This document shows, in pieces, positions 19,656 through 64,000 of a stretch of DNA of 64,000 nucleotides. Position 1 is the first letter of the stretch, and each line of letters begins with the position of its first letter. The position numbers and the translations under genes are program-made. Below the pieces are notes generated by a model that did not search any database, was not told the origin of the DNA, and worked only from the letters and a program-made list of their open reading frames with translations. The stretch is from Candidatus Saccharimonadota bacterium (GTDB lineage Bacteria > Patescibacteriota > Saccharimonadia > CAILAD01 > BJGX01). The DNA lies in the NCBI GenBank assembly GCA_016191105.1, contig JACPPH010000008.1, positions 136,951-200,950 on the forward strand, written 5' to 3'.

Positions 19656-19682
19656 TATAACTGGTCAATTACTGGTAAACAT

Positions 19683-20072: not shown

Positions 20073-20092
20073 AGGTTCTACAAACTTCTGGC

Positions 20093-20843: not shown

Positions 20844-20857
20844 TGTGCAGCATTTTT

Positions 20858-20896
20858 ACTCTTCAATTGAAAACAGTATAGTTTTCAATTGAAGAG
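20858..20896. repeat. perfect ~16-bp-stem inverted repeat (ctcttcaattgaaaac / gttttcaattgaagag)
   Basis: Seen directly; 15 nt from the previous IR. Confidence 0.6.
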
Positions 20897-20917
20897 CAGC
20901 AGTGATAAAATTAGATT

Positions 20918-21139
20918 ATGGATCTGAACTTATTTGTACAGCAAAATCTGTGGTGGCTGTTGCTTCTAACCGCCTGGAGTTTGGGCTGGAAAGGTTGGGC
21001 TCTTTGGCGGGCAGCCAAACTGGATCAAAAAGCTTGGTTTGTGGTTTTTATGATTGTTAACACCCTTGGAATTTTAGAAGTTTTTTATGTCTTCTATTTT
21101 TCCAAGCAAAAAACCGCTACAAAAACTGCCTCTAAATAA
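20918..21139 (+). CDS. small two-TM membrane protein (island cargo)
   Basis: 73 aa with two hydrophobic helices (LWWLLLLTAWSLGW / FVVFMIVNTLGILEVFYVFYF). Confidence 0.4.
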   Translation: MDLNLFVQQNLWWLLLLTAWSLGWKGWALWRAAKLDQKAWFVVFMIVNTLGILEVFYVFYFSKQKTATKTASK

Positions 21140-21413
21140 TGCGGTCGTTAGATCAGATTAGAGCCGATATAGACGTTGTCGATAAAGCACTCATCAATGA
21201 TTTGAAGCGGCGTTTTGAACTAACTCATGAGACCGGCGTATACAAGAAGACTCATAACTTACCAAGCCTAGATAATACCAGGTATCAAAAATGTTAGTGG
21301 CCAGAAATGAAGCAGCCAAGGCCGCTGGGCTACCCGAGGACTTAGCTATAGAAGTCTTTGGTCTAATTCACAAATATTCTGTACTAGAACAAGATAAGCT
21401 AAAATAGCCATTG

Positions 21414-21490
21414 CGGGGTGTGGCGCAGCCTGGTAGCGCGCAGCGTTCGGGACGCTGAGGTCGCCGGTTCAAGTCCGGCCACCCCGACCA
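21414..21490 (+). tRNA. tRNA-Pro (anticodon CGG), C1:G72, CCA encoded
   Basis: CGGGGTG-TG-GCGC AGCCTGGTA GCGC-G-CAGCG TTCGGGA CGCTG-AGGTC-GCCGG TTCAAGT CCGGC-CACCCCG-A-CCA. Confidence 0.85.
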
Positions 21491-24583: not shown

Positions 24584-26441
24584 TGCATATTTAGTAGCTG
24601 CTTTAGGCATTGGCTTGTTTGCATTGTTATTTTTTGCCCAAACTGCCCAGGCTGCAACTTTTACGGTCGATAGCGTTGATGACGGCGGCAACGCGGGTGG
24701 CCCAGGTGTTTGTGACGATGGCGGCGGCAAGTGCACGCTGCGCGCGGCTATAGAGGCAGCCAACACTACAGCTGGAGCCGATGTAATTAATTTTGCCATT
24801 CCTGGTGGTGGGGGTGTAAACACCATTACACCGGGGTCAGACTATCCGGATATAACTGAGCAGCTTACTATAAATGGTGAAACCCAAAATAACCCAAGCT
24901 ATCCTACGATTGCGCCAGATGGTGCGAGTTGTGGCACATTGGTGCCCGCTAGCTTGCCGGCGAGTTCAAACACCCCACACGTACTTAAGATTGAAATCGA
25001 TGGCACCAGTGTAAATCGTGTTTTTAGTCTAGCTGCCAGCAATATCACTCTGCGCGGTCTTGCAATCCACGACGGCTCAACGGCAGTTTATGGCAACTCG
25101 AGTATAAATAATACTCTAATTGAGTGCAATTACATTGGCACAAATCCACCTGGCACGGCAGCCGAGGGTGGCACAGAAGGTATAAATCTACAAAGCAACA
25201 ATAATTCAACAATTCAAAATAATTTGCTAAGCGGCACAAATAACACAGGCATGTTTATTTACAACAGTAGTAATGTGCTTATCCAAAACAACTTGGTTGG
25301 GACTACCGCAATAGGCACGCAGGCGCTGGGTAATGGCAGTATTGGCATATATACCTACAATCTCACAAATGCGACCATTAGCCACAACATTGTTGCTGCG
25401 AACGGCGGCGGTGGTACGCGGGACGATTTGGGTACCTCAACCACTTTCACCGGTAATCTGGTGGGCATAGGCCTATCTGGTAGCCCATTGGGCAATACGG
25501 GCGATGGAGCAATCTTTAAGGGCTCGAACGGGTTTGTGGTTGGCGGCACATCTGCCACACTTCGCAACGTAATGTCGGCCAATACCGGTGATGGGCTACA
25601 TATTTTTGCCAACTGTGATGTCGGCTCATCACTAGTCTCGAACACATACGGCAACTATATTGGTACCAATACAGATGGCACAGTGCAGTCTGTATTCGGC
25701 AATGGCAAGGCGGGCATTGAAGTTAATGAATACCAAGGCAACTGTGGGTCGGTTTATAAACACCAAATTGGCGGCGATAGTGCTGGCCAAGCCAACATTA
25801 TAGCCGGCAATGGTGCTCAAGGTATCTTAATCCACCAGGACACCAATCACGATGTATTTAGCATAACGGCTATCGTGAATAGTATTTATGGCAACGGTCA
25901 GTTTGGTATTGATTTAGCTGCCGACAGTAGCACTACGAATGGGGTTGCCGACACCGATCTTGGCCCCAACCCGCTAAATTTACTAGCTATGACTTACCCC
26001 ACCACAGTTGCCAATTATTATCTTAATACCACTATTGTGAATTCGGCTACCTACTCTGGCAACCAGGTTACTGTTAATTACAGCTTGCAAGCCAACCCGG
26101 CACAAAATAGTAGTGACGGTGTTAGCTTACTTGCCAGTGATCTTGTTGGCTACCGCTTGGATTTTTATATAAATAGTGGCGGCCAGGACGGCGCTTATGC
26201 TGGCTATGGGCAGGGCAAAACCCATTTGGGCTCATTTATAGTAAATGGCTCAGAAACAAATGCCAACCATACTTTTATTAGCTCTGTTGCTTTGACCAAC
26301 GGCCAAACAATAACTGCTACCACGACCGTGCTTTGGACTAATAGTCCAGGCCCAGCTATTACGCCACGAGAGTGTGACGGTGAAACCGAACGAGAAGGCA
26401 ATGGACCACCATATAATTATGTAGGTTCTTGCCCTATGTAG
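24570..26441 (+). CDS. secreted CSLREA-domain protein with parallel beta-helix repeats (paralog 2)
   Basis: Same N-terminal module as paralog 1, with nucleotide tracts 100% identical over about 100 bp. Divergent central beta-helix, conserved C-terminal GYRLDFY...GKTHLGSF block. Confidence 0.6.
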   Translation: MLKRSAYLVAALGIGLFALLFFAQTAQAATFTVDSVDDGGNAGGPGVCDDGGGKCTLRAAIEAANTTAGADVINFAIPGGGGVNTITPGSDYPDITEQLTINGETQNNPSYPTIAPDGASCGTLVPASLPASSNTPHVLKIEIDGTSVNRVFSLAASNITLRGLAIHDGSTAVYGNSSINNTLIECNYIGTNPPGTAAEGGTEGINLQSNNNSTIQNNLLSGTNNTGMFIYNSSNVLIQNNLVGTTAIGTQALGNGSIGIYTYNLTNATISHNIVAANGGGGTRDDLGTSTTFTGNLVGIGLSGSPLGNTGDGAIFKGSNGFVVGGTSATLRNVMSANTGDGLHIFANCDVGSSLVSNTYGNYIGTNTDGTVQSVFGNGKAGIEVNEYQGNCGSVYKHQIGGDSAGQANIIAGNGAQGILIHQDTNHDVFSITAIVNSIYGNGQFGIDLAADSSTTNGVADTDLGPNPLNLLAMTYPTTVANYYLNTTIVNSATYSGNQVTVNYSLQANPAQNSSDGVSLLASDLVGYRLDFYINSGGQDGAYAGYGQGKTHLGSFIVNGSETNANHTFISSVALTNGQTITATTTVLWTNSPGPAITPRECDGETEREGNGPPYNYVGSCPM

Positions 26442-29592: not shown

Positions 29593-31794
29593 ATGAAAAT
29601 TCAATTTTTTATCTATATTCCTACATTTCTGTTACTTTTTTTATTGGGGCTACTTGTTTATCTAAAAAACCACAAGACACGCTCCAACAAACTTTTTATA
29701 TTATTAGATGCCTCCATATTGTTTTGGTTGATACCTTCATTTGTGGCTGACATAGCCACAGACTCAATGATTTCGTTAAGAGCCCTTCAAATAGGGTATT
29801 TAATATCGCTCCTAATTCCTTATTTTTTTATATTGTTTTCATTAACTTTTTTATCTAATAAGAAACTGAACAAACTTACAGTAGGTTTACTTACACCGAC
29901 CCCAATTGTTTTATCTTTATTTTCATTTAGTGTACTAAACATTAATGAAGTCACGATTAGAAATTGGGGGGCAGAGGTTACAAAAAGTGGAATAATATAT
30001 TCAATTTCAGCTGCTTATTTCTTTGGGTACGCGTTACTAGCCTTGCTAGTGCTAATTAGAAAACAGAGAAAATCGAAAGGTAGTGAGAAGGACCAACTTA
30101 GGTTGATAATATATGGTACAGCATTCGCTGCCATTGCAAATGTAGCTACGAGTTATGTGTTTGTTCTATTTGGTAATTCACAATATGCAGTTTTATTTGG
30201 GATACCATCCTTTGTTATATTTGTAGGCTGTATAACCTATGCAATAGTAAGACATAAGCTATTTGACATAAGAGCTGTAATTGCCCGATCGGTTACATTT
30301 GTGCTGCTAATAACTACTATGGCTGGAGTTTATGGTGTAGTGGCTTTTCAGGTAATAAATGTAATACTAAAGGGGAGCTCTAACACTGCAAGACAGCTGG
30401 CCGATGTTCTGCTGGCTGTGGTGTTGGCTTTTACGTTTGGGCCGCTGCGGCGGTTCTTCGAGAAACTAACCGATAGGGTGTTTTATCGTGATCGCTACGA
30501 TCCACAAGTGTTGGTAAACAAAATAGGGCGCATTCTGGCCAGCGAAATTGATTTAGAAAAACTTTGCCGCAAGGTTATAAGTGAATTGACGGTCTCTATG
30601 CGTTTAAGTTTTACCGACATAGTAGTATTTGGCGAAAAGGAAGTTCATTTTCAAACTCGGGTGTTTTCGCCAGATCAGCACCACATATTAATTGCCGATC
30701 TAAAAAAGCTTGGCCGTTTAGCTGTGGTGCGTGATGAGTTAGCTACGGGCGAGCGAAAAGAGGTTATGGATAAATACGGGGTTAGCGCCAGTCTGGCCTT
30801 GCGAACCAGCGAGGAGTTTATAGGCTATCTTTTGTTGGGCGAAAAGAAGTCAGGTGACATATATAATGATCAAGATATTCAGATTCTTAAGATTATTGCT
30901 AATGAGCTATCGGTGGCCATACAAAATGCCAAAGCCTTTACTGAGATACAGTTATTCAATGCAACATTGCAAGAGAAGGTTCAACGTGCCACCAAAAATC
31001 TTCGTCATGCCAACGAACAGCTCAAAGAGCTAGATCAAGCCAAAGATGAGTTTATTAGCATGGCCAGCCATCAGTTGCGCACACCGCTAACTACCGTTAA
31101 GGGCTATGCCAGCATGTTAGCCGAGGGCGATTTTGGCAAGCTGAACAGCCAGCAAAAAGAGCCGGTGCAAGAGGCTCTAGACGGCGCTAGCCGTATGGCT
31201 CGACTAATTGACGATCTGCTGAATGTTAGCCGCATGGAGGCCGGCCGGTTCTTTATAGATGCTGTAAGTACCGACGTGGTTAAAATGACTCAGCAAGAAG
31301 TAGATCAACTGCAAAGCCTGGCCCAAGCCAAGAAGGTAGAGCTTGTGTACGAACCGCCCAAAACACCGCTCAAGCCAATTTTACTCGATGAAAACAAAAC
31401 CCGCCAGGTAATCATGAACCTGGTCGACAACGCCATTCACTATAGCCAGCCGCCGGCCGGCGGAGGGCATGTTCATGTTAAGTTAACCGCCGAAGGCAGC
31501 AACTTGGTGTTTACGGTGCAAGACGATGGCATTGGTGTGCCAAAAGAGCAGCAAGGCAGGCTTTTTCATAAGATGTTTAGAGCCGGAAATGCTAAAAATG
31601 TTCGGCCAGATGGCACAGGCCTTGGTTTGTACCTAGTTAAGCGGGTAGTCGAAGACCAGGGTGGCCAAATAATATTCCAAAGCGAAGAGGGTAAGGGTTC
31701 GCTATTCGGGTTCCGATTACCATTGAGCGGGGTTCCTCAAGAACTGTTGGGTAAGGCCAAAGAAATTGCCAAAACCGCCCACCTGACTGCTTAG
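29593..31794 (+). CDS. sensor histidine kinase (polytopic membrane sensor + GAF-like + HisKA + HATPase_c)
   Basis: About 7 N-terminal TM helices, H-box HQLRTPLTTVKGYASML, and N/G1/G2 boxes (NLVDNAIHYS, DDGIGVP, GTGLGL). Confidence 0.8.
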   Translation: MKIQFFIYIPTFLLLFLLGLLVYLKNHKTRSNKLFILLDASILFWLIPSFVADIATDSMISLRALQIGYLISLLIPYFFILFSLTFLSNKKLNKLTVGLLTPTPIVLSLFSFSVLNINEVTIRNWGAEVTKSGIIYSISAAYFFGYALLALLVLIRKQRKSKGSEKDQLRLIIYGTAFAAIANVATSYVFVLFGNSQYAVLFGIPSFVIFVGCITYAIVRHKLFDIRAVIARSVTFVLLITTMAGVYGVVAFQVINVILKGSSNTARQLADVLLAVVLAFTFGPLRRFFEKLTDRVFYRDRYDPQVLVNKIGRILASEIDLEKLCRKVISELTVSMRLSFTDIVVFGEKEVHFQTRVFSPDQHHILIADLKKLGRLAVVRDELATGERKEVMDKYGVSASLALRTSEEFIGYLLLGEKKSGDIYNDQDIQILKIIANELSVAIQNAKAFTEIQLFNATLQEKVQRATKNLRHANEQLKELDQAKDEFISMASHQLRTPLTTVKGYASMLAEGDFGKLNSQQKEPVQEALDGASRMARLIDDLLNVSRMEAGRFFIDAVSTDVVKMTQQEVDQLQSLAQAKKVELVYEPPKTPLKPILLDENKTRQVIMNLVDNAIHYSQPPAGGGHVHVKLTAEGSNLVFTVQDDGIGVPKEQQGRLFHKMFRAGNAKNVRPDGTGLGLYLVKRVVEDQGGQIIFQSEEGKGSLFGFRLPLSGVPQELLGKAKEIAKTAHLTA

Positions 31795-44749: not shown

Positions 44750-44777
44750 TTTTCGTCTTTTTGTGCTAAAATAATCT

Positions 44778-45262
44778 CAACCCGGCCACAAGCGGTCCCA
44801 CCAGTGGGGCAACTCACAGGTTCGACTGCGGTTCTCGGGTGCCCATTGGGTTAAGTGCCGGTGTGCCTCGGTGCCTGTCCTACACAGGGGCGGGAAAAGC
44901 CGGTAGACTGGCTCGAGCGAGCTCCTGAGCTTGTAGGGCAACAGTGGTAGTGGAACTGCAAAGACAGCCAGGACTAGGGCTTAGAAACAGCCCCGGTTGA
45001 AAGAGTGCGTAACAGCTCACTGGTCGAGTGGTTCTGCGCCACAAAACGCAAGTGGTATGTTTCGGCGATGTCGGCCGCCGCGTGCCGACTTTAAGGGCCT
45101 CTGGCCTATCACATACCCACTCCGACCCTGGCGTTCGCGCTAAGGCGGGGCAAAGGTGGTTTCTCGAGCCGAACTAGAGACTCCACCAACCCCTCGATCG
45201 TATCGAGGTGCCATCCGGAAGGGTGGGCGGGGATTAAAGCATGTCCCCGTCCACTCGCTGGG
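44778..45262 (+). ncRNA. 23S rRNA domain II-like RNA (helices ~41-46 / L10-L11-binding GTPase-associated-centre region) as an isolated ~480-nt non-coding segment
   Basis: Co-linear blocks match conserved 23S sequence, e.g. ACAGCCAGGACTAGGGCTTAGAAACAGCC...AAAGAGTGCGTAACAGCTCACTGGTCGAGTGGTTCTGCGCC vs E. coli ACAGCCAGGATGTTGGCTTAGAAGCAGCC...AAAGAAAGCGTAATAGCTCACTGGTCGAGTCGGCCTGCGCG. Also AACCCGGCCACAAGCGGTCCC, GGTTAAGTG, CTAAGGCGGGGCAAAGG blocks. Extended -10 TGcTAAAAT at 44764-44772 and a terminator-like hairpin/T-run at 45224-45269. No ORFs. Confidence 0.45.
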
Positions 45263-45318
45263 CTTTTTTATTTACGGCAAATGTTCGTATGTGCTAATGC
45301 TTGTAGTAAAATAGACCA

Positions 45319-47487
45319 ATGCAACAGATTCTGGAATCTCTAAATGAATCGCAAAAGCAGGCCGTGCTGGCCACCGAAGGGCCAGTATTAATGCTGGCTG
45401 GTGCTGGCAGTGGTAAAACCAAAACCCTTACGCACCGCATAGCCTACCTGATTGCTGAGCGCAAAATTCCGGCCGCCAACATTTTGGCGGTTACGTTTAC
45501 CAACAAAGCCGCTGGCGAAATGCGCCGACGGGTGGCGCGGATTCTGCACTTTCACGAAGACAATATGAACTATCTGCCCTTCCTTGGCACCTTCCACTCC
45601 ATTGCCAACAAGATTTTGCGGCGCGAGGCGACCCACATTGGCTACCCTAGTAACTTTTTAATCTACGACACCAACGACTCTCAGGCGCTCATTAAGCACC
45701 TTATTAAACAACACCGCATCGACGAAAAAACTATTACTGCTAACGCTGTGGGGCACATGATAAGCAGCGCCAAAAATGAACTGCTCGATCCAAACCAATA
45801 CGCCAACTTTGCCGTCGGTCGCTTGCAAGAGGCCGCGGCCAAAATTTACCCTGATTATCAAAAAGAGTTGCGTAAGGCCCAGGCTATGGACTTTGATGAT
45901 CTTATAATGCAGTTAGTTAAGTTGTTCCAAACTGAGGCCGAGGTGTTAAAAAAATACCAAAGCCAGTTTCAGTACATATTGGTCGATGAGTATCAGGATA
46001 CCAACAACGCTCAGTACACACTCATTCACTTACTGGCGCGTGAGCACAGCAATGTTTGTGTAGTTGGTGACGACTGGCAGAGCATATACAGCTGGCGCGG
46101 TGCCAATTACGAAAACATCCTTAATTTTGAGCGTGATTATCCGACCGCTAAGATTGTAAAACTCGAGCAAAACTATCGCTCTACTCAGACCATACTAGAT
46201 GCTGCCCACGCGGTGATATCTAAAAACACTGCCCGCAGCGAAAAAGAGCTCTGGACCGAAGCCGGCAGTGGAGCTAAGATCCAGCTCGTGAGTGTGCGCG
46301 ATGAGCTCGAAGAGGGCCGGTTTATAGTGCAAACTATTCAGAGCGCTATCGAGCACGACCCACGGCTTAGTCGGCATGACTTTGCGGTGCTGTACCGTAC
46401 TAACGCTCAGTCACGCGCCTTGGAAGAGTCATTTCTGCGCTACAACGTGCCATACCAGATCGTCGGTGGAGTACGGTTTTATGAACGCAAAGAGATCAAA
46501 GATACCTTAGCTTACTTGCGCTTTGTATTTCAGCCCAACGACCAGATTAGTTTACGCCGCGTAATCAACGTGCCTCCGCGCGGCCTGGGCGAGCGCAGCT
46601 TACAAACATTTTTCGATTATACGGCTCGGTTTGAACTTAACTTGCTCGAGGCCATGGCCAACGCCACAGAGATTGAAGGGCTAACACCTAAGGCGGCCAA
46701 AGCTTTCACTGAGTTTGCCGCCACCATCAAAGAGCTTCAGGTAAAACAAGAGACTCTGCCCTTGAGCGTGCTGGTTGAGACAGTATTAAAAACCACTGGC
46801 TACCTTAAGTATCTAGACGACGGCAACATCATCTCGGCCGACCGCATTGAGAACCTCCAAGAGTTTATAGGCGTAGCCAAGAGCTTCGACAATGCTGGCT
46901 TGGAGGCCTTTCTAACAGAAATCACATTAATTTCTGACCTCGATGGCCTCAAAGAAAGCCAAGACGCCGTAACCTTGATGACTCTACATTCGGCTAAAGG
47001 GCTGGAGTTCGACACCGTCTTTATGGCCGGTATGGAGGAGGCTATATTCCCGCACTCTCGAGCCATGTTTGAGGCTGTGGAGCTCGAAGAGGAGCGCCGC
47101 CTATGCTACGTGGGCATGACTCGCGCCAAGAGCAAGCTTTATATGATTCATGCCAATGCTCGTATGTTGTATGGACGCACTCAGCACAACGTGCCCTCGC
47201 GCTTTTTGAGCGACATCCCAGCCGAGCTGGTGGAATCAACCTCACCGACTGGCACCCTTGGCCAGCTGCTACAGCGACAAACACTGTCTGATCCATCGAG
47301 CGGTGACAGCTTCGACGATGAGCCGTTTGTCAATCTGCCTAAGCTTAGCCCGGGTGATGAGGTAGAGCACGATGCCTTTGGCCGCGGCATCGTTAAGAGT
47401 CTCGATGACAGTGAAGTTGTAGTAAGCTTCTACCGAGCCGGCGTAAAAACCCTAAACTTAGGCTTTGCACCATTGAGAAAAGTATGA
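45319..47487 (+). CDS. pcrA: ATP-dependent DNA helicase PcrA/UvrD
   Basis: LNESQKQAV, GAGSGKT (Walker A), VDEYQDTN, and UvrD-C motifs; 722 aa. Confidence 0.9.
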   Translation: MQQILESLNESQKQAVLATEGPVLMLAGAGSGKTKTLTHRIAYLIAERKIPAANILAVTFTNKAAGEMRRRVARILHFHEDNMNYLPFLGTFHSIANKILRREATHIGYPSNFLIYDTNDSQALIKHLIKQHRIDEKTITANAVGHMISSAKNELLDPNQYANFAVGRLQEAAAKIYPDYQKELRKAQAMDFDDLIMQLVKLFQTEAEVLKKYQSQFQYILVDEYQDTNNAQYTLIHLLAREHSNVCVVGDDWQSIYSWRGANYENILNFERDYPTAKIVKLEQNYRSTQTILDAAHAVISKNTARSEKELWTEAGSGAKIQLVSVRDELEEGRFIVQTIQSAIEHDPRLSRHDFAVLYRTNAQSRALEESFLRYNVPYQIVGGVRFYERKEIKDTLAYLRFVFQPNDQISLRRVINVPPRGLGERSLQTFFDYTARFELNLLEAMANATEIEGLTPKAAKAFTEFAATIKELQVKQETLPLSVLVETVLKTTGYLKYLDDGNIISADRIENLQEFIGVAKSFDNAGLEAFLTEITLISDLDGLKESQDAVTLMTLHSAKGLEFDTVFMAGMEEAIFPHSRAMFEAVELEEERRLCYVGMTRAKSKLYMIHANARMLYGRTQHNVPSRFLSDIPAELVESTSPTGTLGQLLQRQTLSDPSSGDSFDDEPFVNLPKLSPGDEVEHDAFGRGIVKSLDDSEVVVSFYRAGVKTLNLGFAPLRKV

Positions 47488-51659: not shown

Positions 51660-53639
51660 ATGAGAAAATTTGGCCAGAGATTTACTGGCGGCTGGCTGTT
51701 GCAAGCCGCAGCTATCGGGTTGTTGATTCTTTATGGCCTAATGGCCACAGCTGTTCCACAGCCGAGCCGGGCGGCGGCCGAATTTGCAAATACGGTTGAC
51801 ATTAAGTATGAGGCTCGATCTGATGGCGTCACCCGGGTTACCGAAACTTATGCGGTTACAAATCAAACCGCCAACAAATACCTAAACAGCATTCAGCTTT
51901 CAGCTCCGACCGATCAGCTGACTAACCTAACAGTCAACTATGGCGACGGTGCTAGTATCCCTTACACTACGGCTGTGAAAGCGGCCAACAGCAAGGGCTA
52001 TAGCTATAACTACCAACAGATACTGATTAACTTTAATCGTCAAAATGCTGGCTTAGGCAATCGCTGGAGTTTTGTGGTTAGTTTTGATACTACTAAGCTG
52101 GTAGAAAGCCAAGGTAGTGCGCGCACAGTTTATATTCCCTCGGTGGCGGCCGATGCAAGCGTACAATACAAGATTAGCTTGGTTGTGCCCGACAATTTTG
52201 GGCCACTACACACCACTGGTCCGCGGCCAGTCAATGCCGGCAGTAAAGACGGTTTTACTACTTATAACTTTGATCAAACCGATATTGCCAACCAATCTCT
52301 TAGCCTGGTGTTTGGCGACTCTACAGTGTATGACATTAATTTTAACTTTCCGCTCAACAACGACTCTAATACGGCCAAAACCCTTACTGTAACCCTACCG
52401 CCTACCACTTCGGCTCAAAAAGTCTACATAAATAGGCTTGAGCCTCAACCATCGGCTACGCGTTTGGATGCTGAGGGCAACATACTAGCTGATTACATGG
52501 TGCCACCACGAACTCGCATGGTAGTGAAAACTAGTGTTGCGGTGGTGGTTAAGTACTTAGATTACAACCTGGTAGCCAGTGGCACCAAGGCCGATATTCC
52601 GGCTGAGTTGGTAGGCGCCTATACTAGCCCTCAGCCCTATTGGCAAGCCAATAATCCGGCGATTATTCAAAAAGCCAACGAGCTAACCAAGGGCAAAGAT
52701 ACGGTTGCCAAGCAGGTACAAGCTATTAATGACTATGTGGTGAGCAGGCTTAGCTACAACAGCGAAAAAATTAAATACAACATTCGCCAAGGTGCGCTCA
52801 AGGCCTTTGAAAACCCCAATAATGTTGTTTGTTTGGAGTACTCCGATCTTACTATCGCGCTCTTGCGGGCGGCCGGTATTCCGGCACGCATGCCAATTGG
52901 TTATGGCTATTCTGGTAATCTCAAGCCGTCTTCGTCGGTTAGCGATTCGCTGCACTCCTGGGTTGAAGCTTATGTACCGGGTGTAGGCTGGATGAACGTT
53001 GACCCAACCTGGGCTGAGAAGTTTCAGAACTTTGGCACCTCTGATCTTGCTCATGTAGCTTTTGCTATTTGGGGCAAAAACAATGACTCACCGACCGCGG
53101 TTATGCAAAACGGCCAGGATATTAATTACCAATACGAAGCTACAACTATTAGCTACCAACAAGCTGTGGCACAACTACCATCCACGAGTCAGATAAGTGT
53201 TAGTAAATATGCGGTTCTGCCGTTTGTGAGTCTCATAAACTATAGCTTACAGGCACCTCAGAATGCTGCCGGTGACAATTATTACCTCGAAATAACCGAA
53301 GGTAGCTACAGCCAGCGAGTTAAGCTTGGTTCGCTGGCGCCGGCTCAAAAAATTAGCTCCGTGGCCTGGGGGCTAAGCATTGGCTTTCTTAATCCTTCGA
53401 CCGTTAAGGTTTTACAGACAGGTAATAATTCGCTGATGCTAGCCACTACCCAGGTCTCGAGTCAATGGTGGCCGTTGGTGGTGTTCTGTCTAATTCTGGC
53501 TGGCATTGTTATCTATTTGTTGGTAAAATCCAGACACACTAAGCGAAAATTAGCCCAAGCTAAGCAGACCCAAGCTCAGGCGGTTAATCGCTTGCACGAG
53601 ATCAAAAACAAGCCAAAGACACCGGAATCAAAATCATGA
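51660..53639 (+). CDS. transglutaminase-like domain surface protein (signal peptide, C-terminal TM anchor)
   Basis: Cys-His-Asp core: VCLEYSDLTIALLRAAGIPARMP...HSWVEAYVPGVGWMNVDPT. Confidence 0.7.
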   Translation: MRKFGQRFTGGWLLQAAAIGLLILYGLMATAVPQPSRAAAEFANTVDIKYEARSDGVTRVTETYAVTNQTANKYLNSIQLSAPTDQLTNLTVNYGDGASIPYTTAVKAANSKGYSYNYQQILINFNRQNAGLGNRWSFVVSFDTTKLVESQGSARTVYIPSVAADASVQYKISLVVPDNFGPLHTTGPRPVNAGSKDGFTTYNFDQTDIANQSLSLVFGDSTVYDINFNFPLNNDSNTAKTLTVTLPPTTSAQKVYINRLEPQPSATRLDAEGNILADYMVPPRTRMVVKTSVAVVVKYLDYNLVASGTKADIPAELVGAYTSPQPYWQANNPAIIQKANELTKGKDTVAKQVQAINDYVVSRLSYNSEKIKYNIRQGALKAFENPNNVVCLEYSDLTIALLRAAGIPARMPIGYGYSGNLKPSSSVSDSLHSWVEAYVPGVGWMNVDPTWAEKFQNFGTSDLAHVAFAIWGKNNDSPTAVMQNGQDINYQYEATTISYQQAVAQLPSTSQISVSKYAVLPFVSLINYSLQAPQNAAGDNYYLEITEGSYSQRVKLGSLAPAQKISSVAWGLSIGFLNPSTVKVLQTGNNSLMLATTQVSSQWWPLVVFCLILAGIVIYLLVKSRHTKRKLAQAKQTQAQAVNRLHEIKNKPKTPESKS

Positions 53640-57647: not shown

Positions 57648-58078
57648 TTCGAAAATACATCTAGCTACTTTCTCCGGCATTAAAGCAAACAGGAAGCTAA
57701 GTAAGCTTAAGTGCTCCAAATTTGAGGACTGTTTGAATCCCGGTCTTGACCGAGATGAGTTGCGCAGAACTGGAAGCGAAAGCTCATTAGTGCTCATGTT
57801 TTGTGTCCATGTCGGCAGTTTTATCCAACTTTTACTGCCAAAAGTTGGCCAAGCCATGGAATGGCAAGATTCAGCTTTTGGCCGAATGGCCAACCTTCTT
57901 TTGAAAAGACTAAAAGAAGGCAAAAGTCTTTGGCCTGTGCTGCGATTCAAGCAGCGCGCAACAAGCAAAATACTTTCTGTTTCTGCGCGGTCTGGTAAAA
58001 ACCAGATTCTCAAAAAAAGAGTGCATTTTGCTATTGCACTTGCTGATCTTGCAACGGCCGGGGAAACGATACGTGTCT
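57648..58078 (-). repeat. copy 2 (inverted orientation) of the 3-copy ~400-nt structured repeat element
   Basis: Reverse complement aligns along about 400 nt with 61662-62060, including gatcagcaagtgca, gctgcttgaatcgcagca, ggccattcggcc, ggcatggacacaaaacatg, cgcttccagttctgcg, cagtcctc...ggagcac, and gcttcctgtttgctttaatgccggag. Confidence 0.7.
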
Positions 58079-59838: not shown

Positions 59839-61656
59839 ATGAAAACCGCAGAAATACGGCAGAAATTCTTAGATTTCTTTAAATCTAAAGACCACGCCAT
59901 TATCCCCAGTGCACCGGTGGTGCCCGAGCACGATCCAACGGTGCTGTTTACAACTGCCGGCATGCACCCTTTGGTGCCCTATCTGTTGGGTCAACCACAC
60001 CCGCAAGGCAAGCGCCTGGCTGACAGTCAAAAGGTGGTTCGAACCACCGATATCGATGAAGTTGGTGATTACTCTCACCTAACTTTTTTCGAGATGCTTG
60101 GCAACTGGAGCTTGGGCGACTACTTTAAACAAGACTCAATTACCTGGAGCTGGGAATTTTTGACCGACAAAAAGTGGATGGGTATAGATCCACACAAACT
60201 ATACATAACTGTCTACGAGGGTGATGGTGAGGTGCCGAAAGATGATGAGTCTATCAAGATCTGGCAAGAGCTGTACAAAAAGGTTGGCATCGAAGCCAAA
60301 GAAGGTGAGCGAATCCTTGCTCTGGGACACGACGATAACTGGTGGGGCGGGGTAGAAACAGGCGCAGCCGGCCCAGATACCGAGATCTTCTATTATCTAG
60401 GCAGCGATAAAAATCCCAAGTTCGATACCGAAAGCACCGATTTTGTGGAGATTTGGAATAACGTGTTTATGACTTACCGTGCCAATAAGGATGGTAGCTA
60501 CACTGAATTACCAAACAAAAATGTGGATACCGGCATGGGCTTGGAACGCATGGCTGTAGCCATGCAGGGCGTAGATAATGTTTACGAAACCGACTCTGTG
60601 CACGAAATCCTGGAGACAGTCGAGGCTTATGCTCGCAACGTGCACAAAACCGTTTTTGAGGAAACCTCACCTGAATCATCGCTGCGCGCAGCTCGAATTA
60701 TCACCGATCATAGCCGCACAGTTACTTTTATGTCGGCCGATGGTGTAAGCCCTGGTAACAAAGACCAAGGCTATGTAATGCGCCGGCTGGCTCGCCGCGC
60801 AATTCGCGAAGGCCTGGTATTGGGAATTCAAAGCGACTTATTTAAAAACATAGTGCCAAAAGTGATTGAGATTTATGGCGATGCTTACCCGGAGCTTAAC
60901 GACCGGGAGGCAGAAATTATGAGCACTCTCGAACGCGAAGAAAAAGTATTTCGCTCAACACTAGCTCGTGGCCTTAAAGAGTTTGAGCGCCTATTACGCG
61001 ACAAAAAAGACCTGAATGGCGCAACTGCCTTCACCCTTTACGACACCTATGGATTTCCAAAAGAGCTTAGCCTAGAAGAGGCTAAACGAGTTGGCTTGCC
61101 AGTAGCTCAAGATTTTGAAAACCAATTCGAGATCGAGATGGAAAAGCAACGCGAACGTAGTCGAACCGCCACAGCTGGGCAATTCAAGGGCGGCTTGGCC
61201 GATGATAGTGAGGTTGCCACCAAGTACCACACTGCTACACACCTTATGTACCGCGCTCTGCGTAATGTGCTGGGTGATCATGTGGTGCAACGCGGATCCA
61301 ATATTACGGCTGAGCGTATGCGCTTCGATTTTTCGCATCACGAAAAAATGACTCCAGAGCAGATCAAAGAGGTGGAAGACATGGTGAACGATGTGATCCA
61401 CAAAGACATGCCCATGAGTTTTGAGGAAATGCCGAAAGATACAGCTTTCGAGAAAGGTGCTTTGGGTGCCTTTGGCGAGAAGTACCCCGATGTGGTGAAA
61501 GTTTATACCGTGGGTGATCCAGAGGGGGATTGGTATTCCAAAGAAATTTGTGGTGGCCCGCACGTTAAACACACCGGCGAAATAGGTAAATTTAAGATAA
61601 CCAAAGAAGAGTCGTCGTCAGCGGGCGTGCGCCGCATTAAAGCCGTTATCGAATAG
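59839..61656 (+). CDS. alaS: alanyl-tRNA synthetase (short form: catalytic + tRNA-recognition + editing domains, no C-Ala domain)
   Basis: FLDFFKSKDHAIIPSAPVVP, TTAGMHP (class II motifs), and editing-site HxxxH...CGGxH (HTATHLMYRAL...CGGPHV). Confidence 0.85.
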   Translation: MKTAEIRQKFLDFFKSKDHAIIPSAPVVPEHDPTVLFTTAGMHPLVPYLLGQPHPQGKRLADSQKVVRTTDIDEVGDYSHLTFFEMLGNWSLGDYFKQDSITWSWEFLTDKKWMGIDPHKLYITVYEGDGEVPKDDESIKIWQELYKKVGIEAKEGERILALGHDDNWWGGVETGAAGPDTEIFYYLGSDKNPKFDTESTDFVEIWNNVFMTYRANKDGSYTELPNKNVDTGMGLERMAVAMQGVDNVYETDSVHEILETVEAYARNVHKTVFEETSPESSLRAARIITDHSRTVTFMSADGVSPGNKDQGYVMRRLARRAIREGLVLGIQSDLFKNIVPKVIEIYGDAYPELNDREAEIMSTLEREEKVFRSTLARGLKEFERLLRDKKDLNGATAFTLYDTYGFPKELSLEEAKRVGLPVAQDFENQFEIEMEKQRERSRTATAGQFKGGLADDSEVATKYHTATHLMYRALRNVLGDHVVQRGSNITAERMRFDFSHHEKMTPEQIKEVEDMVNDVIHKDMPMSFEEMPKDTAFEKGALGAFGEKYPDVVKVYTVGDPEGDWYSKEICGGPHVKHTGEIGKFKITKEESSSAGVRRIKAVIE

Positions 61657-61661
61657 TTCCT

Positions 61662-62060
61662 TCCGGCCGTTGCTGTGATCAGCAAGTGCAGTGGCAAAAT
61701 GCGTTCTTGTTGCGAGAATCTTGTCACTACAAGACCGCACAGCAACAGGAAAGTATTTTTGCTATTGCACGCTGCTTGAATCGCAGCATAGGCCAAAACA
61801 CTTTTGCCCTCTTTTGGTGTCTCAAAAGAACGGTCGGCCATTCGGCCGAAAGCTGAATCTTGTACTGTGCATACGGCACTTCTTTGTAGCCAAAGAAGCA
61901 AAGCTTCTGGCATGGACGCAAACAAGGAGCGCCATCTACTCTCCGCTTCCAGTTCTGCGGAACTCGTCCCGACGGTACTGTCGGGACTCAAACAGTCCTC
62001 GAACGTGGAGCACACCAAGCTCTTTGGCTTCCTGTTTGCTTTAATGCCAGAGAAAGCTAT
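61662..62060 (+). repeat. copy 3 of the 3-copy ~400-nt structured repeat element
   Basis: See copies at 4990-5275 and 57648-58078. Begins 6 nt after the alaS stop. Confidence 0.7.
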
Positions 62061-62242
62061 TTTTGCGATTTTTTGCTAGCGTAAGCCATGTAGATAGCCA
62101 TAGCCAAAAAACCTGCACCCATGCCGGCTAGGGTACCAATAGCCACGCTGTTCCAATAAGAGCCGGCTGCTATGCCGACAAACATAAAGCCAACAAACAG
62201 TAACCCGCCCGAGCCGTTGCTGTCTTTTTTGTTACTCGCCAT
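62057..62242 (-). CDS. small two-TM membrane protein
   Basis: RBS AGGAG 8 nt upstream of the ATG at 62242; 61 aa, hydrophobic. Confidence 0.45.
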   Translation of the reverse strand: MASNKKDSNGSGGLLFVGFMFVGIAAGSYWNSVAIGTLAGMGAGFLAMAIYMAYASKKSQK

Positions 62243-62310
62243 TAATTTAAGCTCCTATAAATAATGTTTTAAGTATAAGAACTTTGGCTGAAAAAAGTCA
62301 CGTATAACGA

Positions 62311-62340
62311 AAACGAGCCCCCGCGAGGGGACTCGTTTTG
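62311..62340. terminator. bidirectional terminator hairpin
   Basis: aaacgagcccc-cgcg-aggggactcgttt, a perfect ~11-bp stem. Just downstream of the pgsA-like gene's stop. Confidence 0.5.
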
Positions 62341-62362
62341 AGTAACTCCTTTCGCGACGGCT

Positions 62363-63265
62363 TTAAGCCACTCGGCCGAACCTCTCGAGCGGGAATCTGG
62401 TGGCCAGAGCCAACCGGATCGGGAATTGAACGTCTACTTGCGGCGCCGGGGGGTTGATCTGGCTTAGCACTACCAGCCAGATGTATTCCCAACGGTGGCG
62501 AGTCAGACTCTTGTCGGCTAACCATCGGGCAATGCCTAGCAGAACCACGGTTGTAACCGGGCCGAACTGGTTGGTGGGATCGTGGATCAGGAACATGAAC
62601 CCCACCAAGAACGCTGCCATCTGCACGTTGAACTTGATCTTGCCCCAGACGTTAGCACCAGGATGGGCAACCTCCATACGGAGCACCATGGGCGCAATCA
62701 ATTTGGTCGAAACCTTGACCAGGTTGAGTTCAACATGGAAGACCCACACGATTACCACCAACAAGGGCGGTACCAGCAGCCAACCGGTTTCGTGGATGGT
62801 GCCGATTACATAGGCCAACACCAGGCAGACCATCATGATCTTGTCGGCCAACGGGTCGAGTATCTTGCCCAGGTCGGTTTCGGCATCGAGATAGCGGGCG
62901 CAGGGTCCGTCAATACCGTCGAGCAGGGCTATACCTACCACCCAAGTGGTCCACTTGGTGATATCGCCCTGTTGAAGGATCGAGGGCAAGAAGTAGCCCA
63001 AGATCACAACCGGCGCTACCACCAGCCGTGCAAAGCTCATGATGTTGGCTGTCATCTTGACCACCCACAGCCGTCGTAGCGGCATAAGCACGATCAAGAT
63101 TGGTGAGGCGAGTAGCACAAAGACGAACCGAAAGGTTGCTTCGAGCCCCGCCAGCAGATCCTTGCCTAGTTTGGCGTAGGCTGACCGATCGGCCTGCCAA
63201 CGCGAGGGTTGCTCGAGACCGGCCCGAGCCTGGTCGTTGATAGGTATAACTTGGCTCATGCTCAT
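62363..63265 (-). CDS. CDP-alcohol phosphatidyltransferase family protein (high-GC region)
   Basis: DG-x2-AR-x8-G-x3-D-x3-D motif (DGIDGPCARYLDAETDLGKILDPLADK) with multiple TM helices. Start set at MSMSQV (63265); the longer ORF-track extension overlaps the WhiB gene. Confidence 0.6.
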   Translation of the reverse strand: MSMSQVIPINDQARAGLEQPSRWQADRSAYAKLGKDLLAGLEATFRFVFVLLASPILIVLMPLRRLWVVKMTANIMSFARLVVAPVVILGYFLPSILQQGDITKWTTWVVGIALLDGIDGPCARYLDAETDLGKILDPLADKIMMVCLVLAYVIGTIHETGWLLVPPLLVVIVWVFHVELNLVKVSTKLIAPMVLRMEVAHPGANVWGKIKFNVQMAAFLVGFMFLIHDPTNQFGPVTTVVLLGIARWLADKSLTRHRWEYIWLVVLSQINPPAPQVDVQFPIRLALATRFPLERFGRVA

Positions 63266-63281
63266 GCTGTCCTTTCGCTGT

Positions 63282-63536
63282 TCAGACTCCGATTTGGCTC
63301 GGGTTGTCGGGTTGTTTGCGTTTCTTGAGTATTCGCCGTCGTTGGCGTTCGCTGGTAGCGCCCCACACGCCGTGATCGAGATGGTGCTCGAGTGCATACT
63401 CAAGGCACGGATCCTTGACCGGGCAGGTGGCACAGACGCGCTTGGCGATCTCCACCCCCACTCCATCGCTGGGAAAAAATTTTGCGGGTGGCTCGAACCG
63501 GCACGCGCCGCGAGCCATCCAATCGTCATCGCGCAT
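63282..63536 (-). CDS. WhiB-like (Wbl) Fe-S transcription factor (high-GC region)
   Basis: Four Cys (C-x22-C-x2-C-x5-C: ...GACRFEP...CATCPVKDPC) and G(V/I)WGG-like turn GVWGATSERQRRR; 84 aa. Confidence 0.7.
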   Translation of the reverse strand: MRDDDWMARGACRFEPPAKFFPSDGVGVEIAKRVCATCPVKDPCLEYALEHHLDHGVWGATSERQRRRILKKRKQPDNPSQIGV

Positions 63537-63681
63537 GGTGTCATCTCCTTTTGTTCTTCAGGTGCGCTTGTTCGCCCATAATATCATAACTTTATATGGT
63601 TTTCAAGGTTTTAGTGGCTAGCCAAGCCCTACCATAAGCGGTACAATTATAGGTGATTTACAAACAGGCAAATCATACGAA

Positions 63682-64000
63682 TTGAAGTTTCCAAAATTTT
63701 CTAAAAAATCGCAAAACACAGATCAATATTTAGTTGCACTCGATATTGGTACCGAGTACGTTAAGGCTCTTATTGGTCAAGTAGTAGAGGGCAAAGACGA
63801 AAAGACCGGCAAGCGTGAGCAGGTGGTAGAGATTATTGGCAGCGGCCGCCAGCGCCAGCGCCTAACCGATATGAGTAGCGGTGCTATTACCGATATTGCT
63901 GGAGTGGTAGAGAACTGCGATGCCGCCTTGCGCCGAGCCGAAGAGATGGCTGGCTGTGTGGCCAAAGATGCGGTTTTGGGTATTGCCGGCGAGTTGGTAA
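63682..64000 (+). CDS. ftsA: cell division protein FtsA (N-terminal part; 3' end outside window)
   Basis: YLVALDIGTEYVKALIGQVVEG...GAITDIAGVVENCDAALRRAEEMAG. Start codon uncertain (TTG at 63682 or an upstream alternative). Confidence 0.55.
   Translation, partial: MKFPKFSKKSQNTDQYLVALDIGTEYVKALIGQVVEGKDEKTGKREQVVEIIGSGRQRQRLTDMSSGAITDIAGVVENCDAALRRAEEMAGCVAKDAVLGIAGELV

What the first reader, a model, noticed from the sequence alone, without database searches (positions are those of the whole stretch)
62280..63560. High-GC block encoding a WhiB-like Fe-S regulator and a CDP-alcohol phosphatidyltransferase
WhiB-like proteins (4-Cys cluster plus G[VI]WGG turn) are essentially confined to Actinobacteria and their phages. 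Here one sits in a block whose GC is far above the rest of the window, directly upstream of a polytopic CDP-alcohol phosphatidyltransferase on the same strand and next to ftsA. In a genome whose core genes (rny, ymdB, sortase, T4P) are not actinobacterial in type, this looks like a host-derived or actinophage-derived acquisition that may influence division or envelope lipid synthesis.
Basis: partly seen in the sequence, partly recalled or inferred. Interest (0 to 1): 0.65.

Follow-up and report, generated by a model that had tools for sequence, protein, structure and literature searches.

The report
Actinobacterial whiB captured by a Saccharibacterium
A tiny parasitic bacterium (Saccharibacteria) has taken a WhiB iron-sulfur transcription factor gene from Actinobacteria, the phylum of all its known hosts, and placed it in front of one of its own conserved membrane-lipid enzyme genes next to ftsA. 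The lipid gene itself is native, not acquired.

Summary
At 62363-63536 (- strand), an 84-aa WhiB gene lies 16 nt upstream of a 300-aa CDP-alcohol phosphatidyltransferase gene. The pair is divergent from ftsA and forms the most GC-rich stretch of the window (0.57 vs 0.46).

The organism is a Candidatus Saccharibacteria bacterium, so WhiB is foreign. Its core is 87% identical to chromosomal WhiBs of Acidimicrobiia-type Actinomycetota but at most 54% identical to any phage WhiB. It is absent from the same site in six other Saccharibacteria lineages. One close relative shares it, and between the two carriers dN/dS is about 0.1, so it is functional. The four Cys ligands and the four sigma-binding aromatic residues are intact.

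The phosphatidyltransferase was not co-acquired. It belongs to a small PgsA-like family whose named or context-checked members are all Saccharibacteria or Patescibacteria, and it sits between ftsA and alaS in seven lineages. Its divergence tracks AlaS. The whiB ORF was inserted between that gene's conserved promoter/leader and its start codon, giving a two-gene operon with a terminator.

This is a new member of a known kind: a host-phylum-to-epibiont transfer of a regulator that the literature describes as exclusive to Actinobacteria and their phages. Interest is moderate.

The parts
63282..63536 (-). whiB: 84-aa WhiB-like [4Fe-4S] transcription factor, horizontally acquired from Actinomycetota
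   Evidence: Pfam PF02467 E=4.7e-21. Closest solved relative is S. venezuelae WhiB 8dy7_H, aligned without gaps. Core is 87% identical to actinobacterial P0004/P0039. GC 0.604, GC3 0.659.
62363..63265 (-). PgsA-like CDP-alcohol phosphatidyltransferase, 300 aa (alternative start 63259); native, syntenic Saccharibacteria gene
   Evidence: Pfam PF01066 E=7.9e-19. Catalytic motif intact. Family profile best matches S. aureus PgsA 7DRJ, and the model's best fold match is 7DRK. Orthologues sit at the same site in L001, L083-L090, L206 and L208.
63578..63606 (-). sigma-70-type promoter-like site TTGAAA-17-TATTAT with extended -10 TG, upstream of whiB
   Evidence: 10 of 12 matches plus TG. The TTGAAA / TA..AT boxes and the following 'GCGCACCT' leader align with the ftsA-proximal intergenic regions of L002, L087 and L090, where in L087 and L090 they precede the transferase gene directly.
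63537..63577 (-). 5' leader with ribosome-binding site AAAGGAG before the whiB ATG
   Evidence: Read from the sequence; alignment.
63266..63281 (-). 16-nt whiB-transferase spacer carrying a GAAAGGA ribosome-binding site; no room for a promoter, so the two genes are probably co-transcribed
   Evidence: Read from the sequence.
62310..62339 (-). intrinsic-terminator-like hairpin (AAAACGAGCCCC-GCGA-GGGGACTCGTTTT) 23 nt after the transferase stop codon; marks the low-coordinate edge of the GC-rich block
   Evidence: stem 62330..62318 followed by a T-run; sequence.
63682..64000 (+). 5' part of ftsA, divergently transcribed and cut by the window end
   Evidence: The translation matches FtsA of L002/L001, which carry Pfam FtsA PF14450. 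The full gene is present in L205.
62057..62242 (-). 61-aa small membrane protein gene, a conserved resident of the ftsA-alaS interval
   Evidence: 79% identical to the L002 61-aa protein and 59% to the L001 59-aa protein. No Pfam family.
59839..61656 (+). alaS (alanyl-tRNA synthetase), the conserved far boundary of the interval
   Evidence: Pfam tRNA-synt_2c E=4.8e-132. 88% identical to L002 AlaS and 58-60% to the other lineages.

Best explanation
Shown:
- The window comes from a Candidatus Saccharibacteria genome.
- In this clade the interval between ftsA and alaS holds a lineage-specific PgsA-like CDP-alcohol phosphatidyltransferase gene, transcribed divergently from ftsA.
- In the sub-lineage containing this genome and L002, a chromosomal whiB from an Acidimicrobiia-type actinobacterium was acquired horizontally.
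- Here the bare ORF (about 270 nt) sits between the resident promoter/leader and the transferase start codon. whiB is therefore the first gene of a probable two-gene operon ending at a terminator hairpin.
- The gene has been partly ameliorated: GC3 is 0.66-0.73, against 0.84-0.89 in donor-type genomes.
- It is under strong purifying selection in Saccharibacteria.

Inferred mechanism:
- The protein binds a [4Fe-4S] cluster through Cys12, Cys35, Cys38 and Cys44.
- It docks through its aromatic patch (W6, F20, F21, W58) on region 4 of the epibiont's own primary sigma factor. The critical His-Pro pair of that region ('LRHPSRS') is conserved in primary sigma factors well beyond Actinobacteria.
- Its basic tail (R64-K74) touches DNA upstream of the -35 element.
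- Together these would give a redox/NO-sensitive layer of transcription control, expressed together with an enzyme that makes an anionic phospholipid head group from CDP-diacylglycerol.

The donor phylum matches the only known host phylum of Saccharibacteria, which suggests an acidimicrobial host.
For: Organism: NCBI names P0001 and P0121 as Candidatus Saccharibacteria bacterium. Family members P0305 and P0313 are named Saccharibacteria and Patescibacteria.

Foreign origin of whiB:
- The best 80 hits in GTDB representative genomes are all Acidimicrobiia/Actinomycetota or unclassified MAGs, except one labelled Bifidobacterium. None is a Saccharibacterium.
- Core identity is 87% to P0004/P0039. 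P0039 and P0003 lie in GC 0.69-0.73 contigs with a ppk-CHAD-NUDIX context, plus a protease, an ECF sigma gene and a second whiB in P0039's contig.
- whiB is absent from the same interval in L001, L083-L090 and L206-L209.
- AlaS between these Saccharibacteria is only 58-60% identical, so 87% WhiB identity to Actinobacteria cannot be vertical.

Not phage-derived.

Functional: dN/dS is 0.07-0.12 at dS about 1.3 between window and L002, the same range as between actinobacterial orthologues. The Cys ligands and aromatic patch are intact (residue roles from PMC13013590 and PMC6954389).

Native transferase:
- The family has about 19 clusters, then a sharp score drop, and about 21 representatives at E<=1e-10 among 1.84 billion proteins.
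- It shows the same synteny in 7 lineages.
- Its identity tracks AlaS.
- No homologue lies within +/-10 kb of whiB in 80 actinobacterial loci.

Insertion into the leader: promoter and leader are conserved with loci where they drive the transferase directly.

Not an assembly artefact: the Logan contig L205 reproduces the junctions at 100% over 2123 nt, and L002 from another sample has whiB at the same site.

PgsA-like.
Against: - No experiment or transcript data exist. Co-transcription, cluster binding and sigma binding are inferred.
- The epibiont's RpoD could not be retrieved, so compatibility of its region 4 is assumed from general knowledge of primary sigma factors.
- The turn is GVWGA rather than GVWGG, and R52H and I53L replace residues that are 97-99% conserved. 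Partner specificity may therefore have shifted.
- With 84 residues and about 85% mean pairwise identity inside the orthologue group, the exact donor clade and the number of acquisitions cannot be resolved.
- The transferase scores below every NCBIfam equivalog cutoff (49.8 vs 109.1 for pgsA), so its substrate is unknown.
- Its persistent high GC3 is unexplained, so an ancient foreign origin for the family cannot be strictly excluded.
Confidence: 0.72

Rival explanations
1. The whole GC-rich block (whiB plus the phosphatidyltransferase) is a single cassette acquired from an actinobacterium.
For: Both genes share elevated GC (0.60 and 0.57) and GC3 (0.66 and 0.72), lie 16 nt apart and are bounded by AT-rich DNA.
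Against: - The transferase occupies the same ftsA-alaS position in six other Saccharibacteria lineages that have no whiB.
- Its divergence tracks AlaS.
- All named or context-checked family members are Saccharibacteria/Patescibacteria.
- Its high GC3 is shared by all orthologues.
- No relative above about 35% identity exists outside the family among 1.84 billion representative proteins.
- None lies near whiB in 80 actinobacterial loci.
Confidence: 0.04
2. whiB came from an actinophage (or a phage of the epibiont), not from a cellular chromosome.
For: WhiB genes are common in actinophages: 602 INPHARED records match. Phages are plausible vectors between a host and its epibiont.
Against: - The best phage matches are 39% (cultured phages) and 54% (IMG/VR), against 87% core identity to chromosomal actinobacterial orthologues lying in conserved housekeeping contexts.
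- There are no phage genes, integrase, tRNA or flanking repeats at the site.
Confidence: 0.05
3. Assembly or binning artefact: an actinobacterial fragment mis-joined into a Saccharibacteria contig.
For: The composition jumps sharply over 1.26 kb. The source is a metagenome-assembled contig.
Against: - Saccharibacteria genes flank the block on both sides within one contig.
- An independent Logan assembly gives identical junctions.
- A second Saccharibacterium from a different run has the orthologue at the same site.
- whiB is only 73-76% identical in nucleotides to donor-type genes, and its GC3 is intermediate.
- The promoter/leader is of Saccharibacteria type.
Confidence: 0.02
4. The host-derived WhiB is an effector or mimic aimed at the actinobacterial host's sigma-A, as actinophage WhiBs are thought to act, rather than a regulator of the epibiont's own genes.
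For: - It stays 87% identical to host-phylum WhiBs, with every sigma-A4 contact residue intact.
- Its closest solved relative is the cell-division regulator WhiB of S. venezuelae.
- All known Saccharibacteria hosts are Actinomycetota, and secreted effectors are proposed for the group (PMC12592800).
Against: - No signal peptide or secretion-associated neighbour is present.
- It is co-transcribed with a housekeeping-type membrane enzyme from a native promoter.
- Fe-S holoproteins are poor secretion substrates.
- Conservation is equally explained by binding the near-universal His-Pro site of the epibiont's own sigma factor.
Confidence: 0.07
5. WhiB is ancestral in this Saccharibacteria clade and was lost repeatedly (vertical inheritance).
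For: Two related lineages carry it at the same locus.
Against: - It is present only in the two closest relatives (AlaS 88% identical) and absent in six deeper lineages.
- Its identity to Actinomycetota (87%) far exceeds what vertical descent from a common ancestor of the two phyla would allow.
- No Saccharibacteria appear among the best 80 GTDB hits.
Confidence: 0.03

Closest known systems
WhiB / WhiB2-class Wbl proteins of Actinobacteria (e.g. S. venezuelae WhiB, PDB 8DY7; M. tuberculosis WhiB1, PDB 6ONO)
   Same: - Pfam PF02467.
- Identical Cys spacing to S. venezuelae WhiB, with a gap-free alignment over 68 residues.
- Aromatic-patch residues W6, F20, F21 and W58.
- Gly-rich turn and Arg/Lys-rich C-terminal tail.
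- 76-87% identity to an Acidimicrobiia-wide chromosomal orthologue group.
   Different: - Encoded in a Patescibacteria (Saccharibacteria) genome, whereas the family is described as exclusive to Actinobacteria and actinophages (PMC13013590).
- Turn is GVWGA.
- R52H and I53L replace near-invariant positions.
- New genomic context: first gene of an operon with a lipid enzyme, divergent from ftsA.
- No WhiA partner gene was found in the window, though only candidates of WhiA size were scanned.
Actinophage WhiB-like proteins (e.g. mycobacteriophage Tweety gp57 region, cluster F phages; TM4 WhiB from my own knowledge)
   Same: A Wbl gene carried outside an actinobacterial chromosome by an entity that exploits actinobacteria. 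Same fold family.
   Different: Only 37-54% identical. Here the carrier is a cellular epibiont and the gene is a near-unchanged copy of a host-type chromosomal orthologue.
PgsA, CDP-diacylglycerol--glycerol-3-phosphate 3-phosphatidyltransferase (S. aureus PgsA, PDB 7DRJ/7DRK; TIGR00560)
   Same: - CDP-alcohol phosphatidyltransferase motif fully intact.
- Best sequence-profile match (E=3e-12) and best fold match (TM 0.68 on the target).
- Shares the PgsA 'GKxK' element (G208-K209-I-K211-F).
   Different: - Scores 49.8 bits against the 109.1 cutoff of TIGR00560.
- About 100 residues longer, with a disordered N-terminus and one extra N-terminal helix (H35-63).
- Family-specific invariant residues N74, R80, E179, G203, S253 and near-invariant H257.
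- Family so far seen only in Saccharibacteria/Patescibacteria, and always beside ftsA.
Documented host-to-Saccharibacteria gene transfers (general phenomenon; from my own knowledge, not verified here)
   Same: A gene from the host phylum fixed in a reduced epibiont genome, compositionally distinct and patchily distributed.
   Different: The cargo is a lineage-restricted transcription factor that must plug into the recipient's RNA polymerase, not a metabolic or surface function.

Membership tests
WhiB-like (Wbl) family, PF02467 | Profile match above the curated threshold | tested here: met
   75.6 bits vs cutoff 23.6, covering 64 of 65 profile positions.
WhiB-like (Wbl) family, PF02467 | Four Cys ligands, C-Xn-C-X2-C-X5-C | tested here: met
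   C12, C35, C38, C44. Same spacing as S. venezuelae WhiB, aligned without gaps.
WhiB-like (Wbl) family, PF02467 | Gly-rich beta-turn G[V/I]WGG | tested here: met
   G56-V-W-G-A60. The last Gly is Ala, as in 5 of 119 close relatives. A minor variant.
WhiB-like (Wbl) family, PF02467 | Aromatic patch AP1-4 for sigma-A region 4 binding (W3, F17, F18, W60 of Mtb WhiB1; PMC13013590) | tested here: met
   W6, F20, F21 and W58 align to these positions in the phmmer alignment to 5oay/6ono. Definition taken.
WhiB-like (Wbl) family, PF02467 | Binds a [4Fe-4S] cluster and the primary sigma factor | not testable with these tools
   Needs protein biochemistry. The genome's RpoD could not be retrieved (no rpoD in the window or in the fetched Saccharibacteria loci).
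WhiB-like (Wbl) family, PF02467 | Occurrence restricted to Actinobacteria and actinophages (as stated in the literature) | tested here: not met
   The host genome is Candidatus Saccharibacteria. This is a statement about distribution, not a structural criterion, and it is the point of interest.
CDP-alcohol phosphatidyltransferase, PF01066 | Motif D-x2-D-G-x2-A-R-x8-G-x3-D-x3-D | tested here: met
   D116, D119, G120, A123, R124, G133, D137, D141. All are invariant in the 17-member family alignment except R124, which is >=90% conserved.
CDP-alcohol phosphatidyltransferase, PF01066 | Profile match above threshold, and a polytopic all-helical fold like the solved members | tested here: met
   69 bits vs cutoff 22. 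The model (pLDDT 83) has 7 long helices. The top 12 Foldseek matches are all CDP-alcohol phosphotransferases.
PgsA equivalog (TIGR00560 / NF008090) | Score at or above NCBIfam's equivalog cutoff | tested here: not met
   49.8 vs 109.1 bits, and 28.5 vs 304. It can be called PgsA-like, but not filed as PgsA.
PgsA equivalog (TIGR00560 / NF008090) | Uses CDP-diacylglycerol plus glycerol-3-phosphate | not testable with these tools
   Requires an enzyme assay or complementation.
Horizontally acquired gene (host phylum to epibiont) | Nearest relatives in another phylum, far closer than housekeeping genes allow | tested here: met
   87% core identity to Actinomycetota WhiBs, against 58% AlaS identity among Saccharibacteria lineages. 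The top 80 GTDB loci contain no Saccharibacteria.
Horizontally acquired gene (host phylum to epibiont) | Patchy presence at a conserved syntenic site | tested here: met
   Present in window/L205 and L002. Absent from L001, L083-L090 and L206-L209.
Horizontally acquired gene (host phylum to epibiont) | Atypical composition relative to the recipient | tested here: met
   GC 0.604 vs 0.461. GC3 of 0.66 lies between the recipient (0.46) and donor-type genomes (0.84-0.89).

The most novel reading that the evidence does not exclude
The epibiont keeps a nearly unaltered copy of its host's cell-division-class WhiB in order to act on the host. Once delivered into, or taken up by, the attached actinobacterium, it would occupy the host's sigma-A region 4 and reprogramme host division or envelope genes, as actinophage WhiBs are thought to do. 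This would be the first transcription-factor mimic used by a bacterial episymbiont. A milder version is that a Wbl protein works with a non-actinobacterial sigma-70 and couples epibiont membrane-lipid and division gene expression to redox/NO cues from the host.
Probability: 0.07. Interest if true: 0.85.

Novelty: new member of a known kind. Interest (0 to 1): 0.45.

Why it matters
Current literature describes Wbl proteins as exclusive to Actinobacteria and their phages. A selected, intact copy in a Saccharibacterium matters for four reasons:
- It shows that this Fe-S, sigma-bound regulator can be fixed and kept under selection in a different phylum, and so may function there.
- It offers a natural test of whether Wbl action depends on actinobacteria-specific features of RNA polymerase.
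- It gives a genomic clue, an Acidimicrobiia-type donor, to the unknown host of an uncultured environmental Saccharibacteria clade.
- It draws attention to a previously undescribed PgsA-like enzyme family, locked next to ftsA, in organisms reported to lack de novo phospholipid synthesis.

Tried and rejected
- **Metagenome scan with the transferase family alignment.** It returned unrelated transferases of about 30% identity, so it said nothing about the block's distribution.
- **Genome-contig scan with WhiB.** It returned only Actinomycetota or unclassified MAGs. This was useful for origin, but it used the only scan, so Saccharibacteria genomes could not be surveyed for whiB.
- **Search for rpoD and further whiB copies in the window and 15 Saccharibacteria loci by tblastn.** No rpoD was found, and no whiB other than the copies already known in the window/L205 and L002.
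- **Pfam scan of eight window ORFs, including those of WhiA size.** No WhiA was found.
- **Test for a remnant of the transferase in L002, or of L001's bestrophin-like gene in the window.** None was found.
- **Rfam search of 61600-64000 at E<=0.1.** Nothing was found.
- **Flanking direct or inverted repeats, tRNA or integrase at the whiB insertion.** None was found, so the insertion mechanism remains unknown.
- **Literature search for WhiB in Saccharibacteria.** The only papers of substance concern the host Schaalia's own WhiB.
- **Membrane-protein codon bias as the cause of the transferase's high GC3.** Rejected, because ORFs I judged to be membrane proteins from their N-terminal sequences (29593-31794, 51660-53639) have GC3 of 0.42-0.49.
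Full report
**1. What is in the sequence**

- The minus strand between 62363 and 63536 carries two ORFs 16 nt apart.
- The upstream one (63282-63536, 84 aa) matches Pfam Whib at E=4.7e-21. The downstream one (62363-63265, 300 aa) matches CDP-OH_P_transf at E=7.9e-19.
- The WhiB protein has Cys12, Cys35, Cys38 and Cys44, the turn GVWGA and a basic tail RQRRRILKKRK.
- The transferase has the complete catalytic motif D116xxDGxxAR-x8-G-xxxD-xxxD141.
- ftsA starts divergently at 63682 and runs off the window end. alaS ends at 61656.
- The stretch 62300-63560 has GC 0.572 against 0.461 for the window, and is the highest 1260-nt window in the sequence.
- The transferase has the highest GC3 of any ORF called (0.72, against 0.456 +/- 0.074 for the rest).

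**2. Whose genome is it**

- Both proteins exist in NCBI under 'Candidatus Saccharibacteria bacterium', on a 203-kb contig.
- The gene order around the block is obg, LysM-CHAP, yceG, ruvX, ftsA | block | alaS, mnmA, DUF218, cysteine desulfurase, tatD. This order recurs on many contigs. The transferase of one (P0305, L084, a 644-kb MAG contig) is named Saccharibacteria and that of another (P0313, L087-L089) Patescibacteria.

**3. Origin of whiB**

- The protein belongs to a very tightly conserved orthologue group, with mean pairwise core identity of 85%.
- In GTDB representative genomes the best 80 loci are Acidimicrobiales, Acidimicrobiia, Iamia, Microthrixaceae, Ilumatobacteraceae, unclassified Actinomycetota or unclassified MAGs, plus one MAG labelled Bifidobacterium. 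None is a Saccharibacterium. Named cluster members include Rhabdothermincola.
- Over residues 5-73 the window protein is 87% identical to P0004/P0039. P0039 comes from an 'Actinobacteria bacterium' MAG, in a locus of GC 0.685 next to ppk, CHAD, NUDIX, a trypsin-PDZ protease, an ECF sigma factor and a second whiB. P0003 sits in a similar ppk-CHAD-NUDIX context at GC 0.733.
- Phage WhiBs reach only 39% (INPHARED) and 54% (IMG/VR) identity.
- Among Saccharibacteria, only one other lineage was found with the gene. L002 has AlaS 88% identical to the window's and carries whiB at the same ftsA-proximal site. Its WhiB is 87% core-identical and shares the rare Val34.
- Six deeper lineages (AlaS 58-60% identical) have no whiB within the 5-10 kb of flank fetched on either side.
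- The simplest history is one transfer from an Acidimicrobiia-type actinobacterium into the common ancestor of the window organism and L002.
- L002 also carries a second, different whiB. It is 62-70% identical to the second whiB that lies 0.4-5 kb (typically 1-2 kb) from the first in the actinobacterial loci. More than one gene of that donor neighbourhood therefore reached this site.

**4. Is it a live gene or debris**

- Synonymous sites between the window and L002 are nearly saturated (dS about 1.3), while dN/dS is 0.07-0.12. This matches the range between two actinobacterial orthologues (0.05-0.11).
- GC3 has drifted from 0.84-0.89 in donor-type genomes to 0.66-0.73.
- The gene has therefore lived in Saccharibacteria for a long time under purifying selection.
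- Only four positions depart from residues conserved at 90% or more: I34V, R52H, I53L and G60A.

**5. Artefact check**

- A Logan assembly of run SRR12113392 (L205) reproduces ftsA-whiB-transferase-small gene-alaS at 100% identity over 2123 nt.
- L002 comes from a different run.
- Together with the partial amelioration and the Saccharibacteria-type promoter, this rules out a chimeric contig for practical purposes.

**6. The transferase is native**

- An exhaustive HMMER search of 1.84 billion representative proteins found only about 21 at E<=1e-10. All are 188-310 aa long and 30-44% identical.
- A profile of the family finds about 19 clusters at E<=1e-42, then drops to 1e-16. The named clusters are Saccharibacteria or Patescibacteria.
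- Every member whose context I fetched, including two at only 31-32% identity, sits divergently beside ftsA with alaS and mnmA downstream.
- Its pairwise identities follow those of AlaS: 82% at AlaS 92%, 55-60% at 83%, and 36-40% at 58%.
- No homologue lies near whiB in the 80 actinobacterial loci.
- Its GC3 is elevated in all lineages (0.62-0.74).
I cannot explain that property.

**7. How the two came together**

- The ftsA-proximal intergenic region contains a strong sigma-70-like site on the minus strand: TTGAAA-17-TATTAT with an upstream TG (63606-63578).
- The same boxes and the following 'GCGCACCT' leader align with L002, and with L087 and L090, where they directly precede the transferase gene.
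- The whiB ORF plus at most about 16 nt therefore landed between the resident leader and the transferase start codon.
- A GC-rich hairpin with a T-run (62310-62339) follows the transferase stop codon.
- The inferred unit is promoter - whiB - transferase - terminator.
- No repeats, tRNA or integrase mark the insertion.
- In L002 the transferase is missing, and a 184-aa high-GC orphan membrane protein occupies its place. The interval is evidently a place where foreign high-GC DNA is tolerated.

**8. Likely mechanism**

- The closest solved structure is S. venezuelae WhiB in the WhiA-WhiB-RNA polymerase complex (8DY7). It aligns without gaps, and Mtb WhiB1 is next.
- Published work shows that Wbl proteins dock on sigma-A region 4 through an aromatic patch (W3, F17, F18, W60 in WhiB1), centred on the sigma His516-Pro517 pair (PMC6954389, PMC13013590).
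- The window protein has W6, F20, F21 and W58 at those positions.
- From my own knowledge, the 'KLRHPSRS' segment holding that His-Pro pair is conserved in the primary sigma factors of E. coli and B. subtilis as well as Mycobacterium. A transferred Wbl could therefore engage a non-actinobacterial holoenzyme.
- I infer that the protein is a redox/NO-responsive, sigma-bound regulator of the epibiont's own transcription, made together with the lipid enzyme.
- I could not obtain this genome's rpoD, nor find whiA in the window.

**9. The enzyme**

- By sequence profile and by fold, the enzyme is nearest S. aureus PgsA. It keeps a GKxK element that aligns with the GKIK stretch of S. aureus PgsA.
- It fails the pgsA equivalog cutoff. 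It also has an extra N-terminal helix and family-specific invariant residues.
- A PgsA-like head-group transfer from CDP-diacylglycerol is the best guess.
- Saccharimonadia are reported to lack de novo phospholipid synthesis (PMC12592800), so it may remodel scavenged host lipids.

**10. Comparison and novelty**

- This is a bona fide Wbl family member by every sequence criterion tested, in a phylum where the family is not supposed to occur.
- I found no paper discussing WhiB in Saccharibacteria. A 2026 study states that the family is exclusive to Actinobacteria and actinophages. The NCBI annotation already names the protein.
- I class it as a new member of a known kind.
- The donor phylum matches the only known host phylum of Saccharibacteria, which makes the transfer biologically sensible and hints at an acidimicrobial host.
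- The most novel reading not excluded is use of the protein against the host's sigma-A, which I put at about 7%.

**11. Verdict**

- whiB is a host-phylum acquisition, but it did not come from a phage.
- The phosphatidyltransferase is not part of that acquisition.
- Interest is moderate (0.45).

Noticed in passing
window 61657-62056 (+), 57668-58061 (-), 5065-5279 (+, 3' half only): A roughly 400-nt repeat, about 76% identical between copies. It fills intergenic gaps that do not exist in the close relative L002 (alaS/small gene and DUF218/mnmA). It folds far better than shuffles (z = -8.6 and -7.6). Between the two full copies, 9 of 97 predicted pairs show compensatory double changes and none is broken. 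There is no Rfam match, no exact 22-mer in IMG/VR, and no copy in any other fetched locus. It looks like an undescribed structured multi-copy RNA or a MITE-like element.
   Followed up: partly
window 44946-45045 (+), within the gene-free stretch 44760-45300: An isolated 100-nt match to bacterial 23S rRNA (model positions 1071-1170, 82 bits at the gathering threshold and 76 bits in the E-value search, E=1e-22, with the local structure intact). It lies in a GC-rich 540-nt intergenic region upstream of a 722-aa ORF (45319-47487) whose N-terminus looks like a UvrD/PcrA-type helicase (my reading; not checked against Pfam). There is no other rRNA in the window. It could be an rRNA-derived fragment or an rRNA-mimicking element.
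   Followed up: partly
window about 16100-21400: A low-GC island (0.38-0.40) bracketed by tRNA-Pro(tgg) at 16066-16142 and tRNA-Pro(cgg) at 21414-21490. It contains a 614-aa gene and small ORFs, one of which looked HTH-like by eye (not Pfam-checked). It may be an integrated element.
   Followed up: no
L002 9702-10940: The closest relative has two tandem whiB genes that overlap by one base, followed by a 184-aa GC 0.63 orphan membrane protein, in place of the phosphatidyltransferase. The first whiB (99 aa) matches, at 62-70%, the second whiB that neighbours the 84-aa orthologue in Acidimicrobiia genomes.
   Followed up: partly
window 62363-63265; L001 9071-10000; L083/L084 8001-8846; L087 8001-8834; L090 8001-8843; L206 6001-6813; L208 1280-2146: The native phosphatidyltransferase gene keeps GC3 of 0.62-0.74 in seven diverged lineages, while alaS sits at 0.45-0.58. 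A few small ORFs on the other side of ftsA also exceed 0.7 in L001 and L087. No explanation was found.
   Followed up: partly
window 22440-22780 and 24630-25003: Two adjacent large genes (616 and 641 aa, N-termini look like signal peptides) share 91-98% identical internal DNA segments. They are recently duplicated or gene-converted paralogues.
   Followed up: no
window 14687-15577: An ORF with an F420-0:gamma-glutamyl ligase (CofE-like) domain (Pfam E=7.8e-42) sits next to the tRNA cluster. This is unexpected in a reduced Saccharibacteria genome. F420 metabolism is, from my own knowledge, typical of Actinobacteria and archaea, so it may be another host-phylum acquisition.
   Followed up: no
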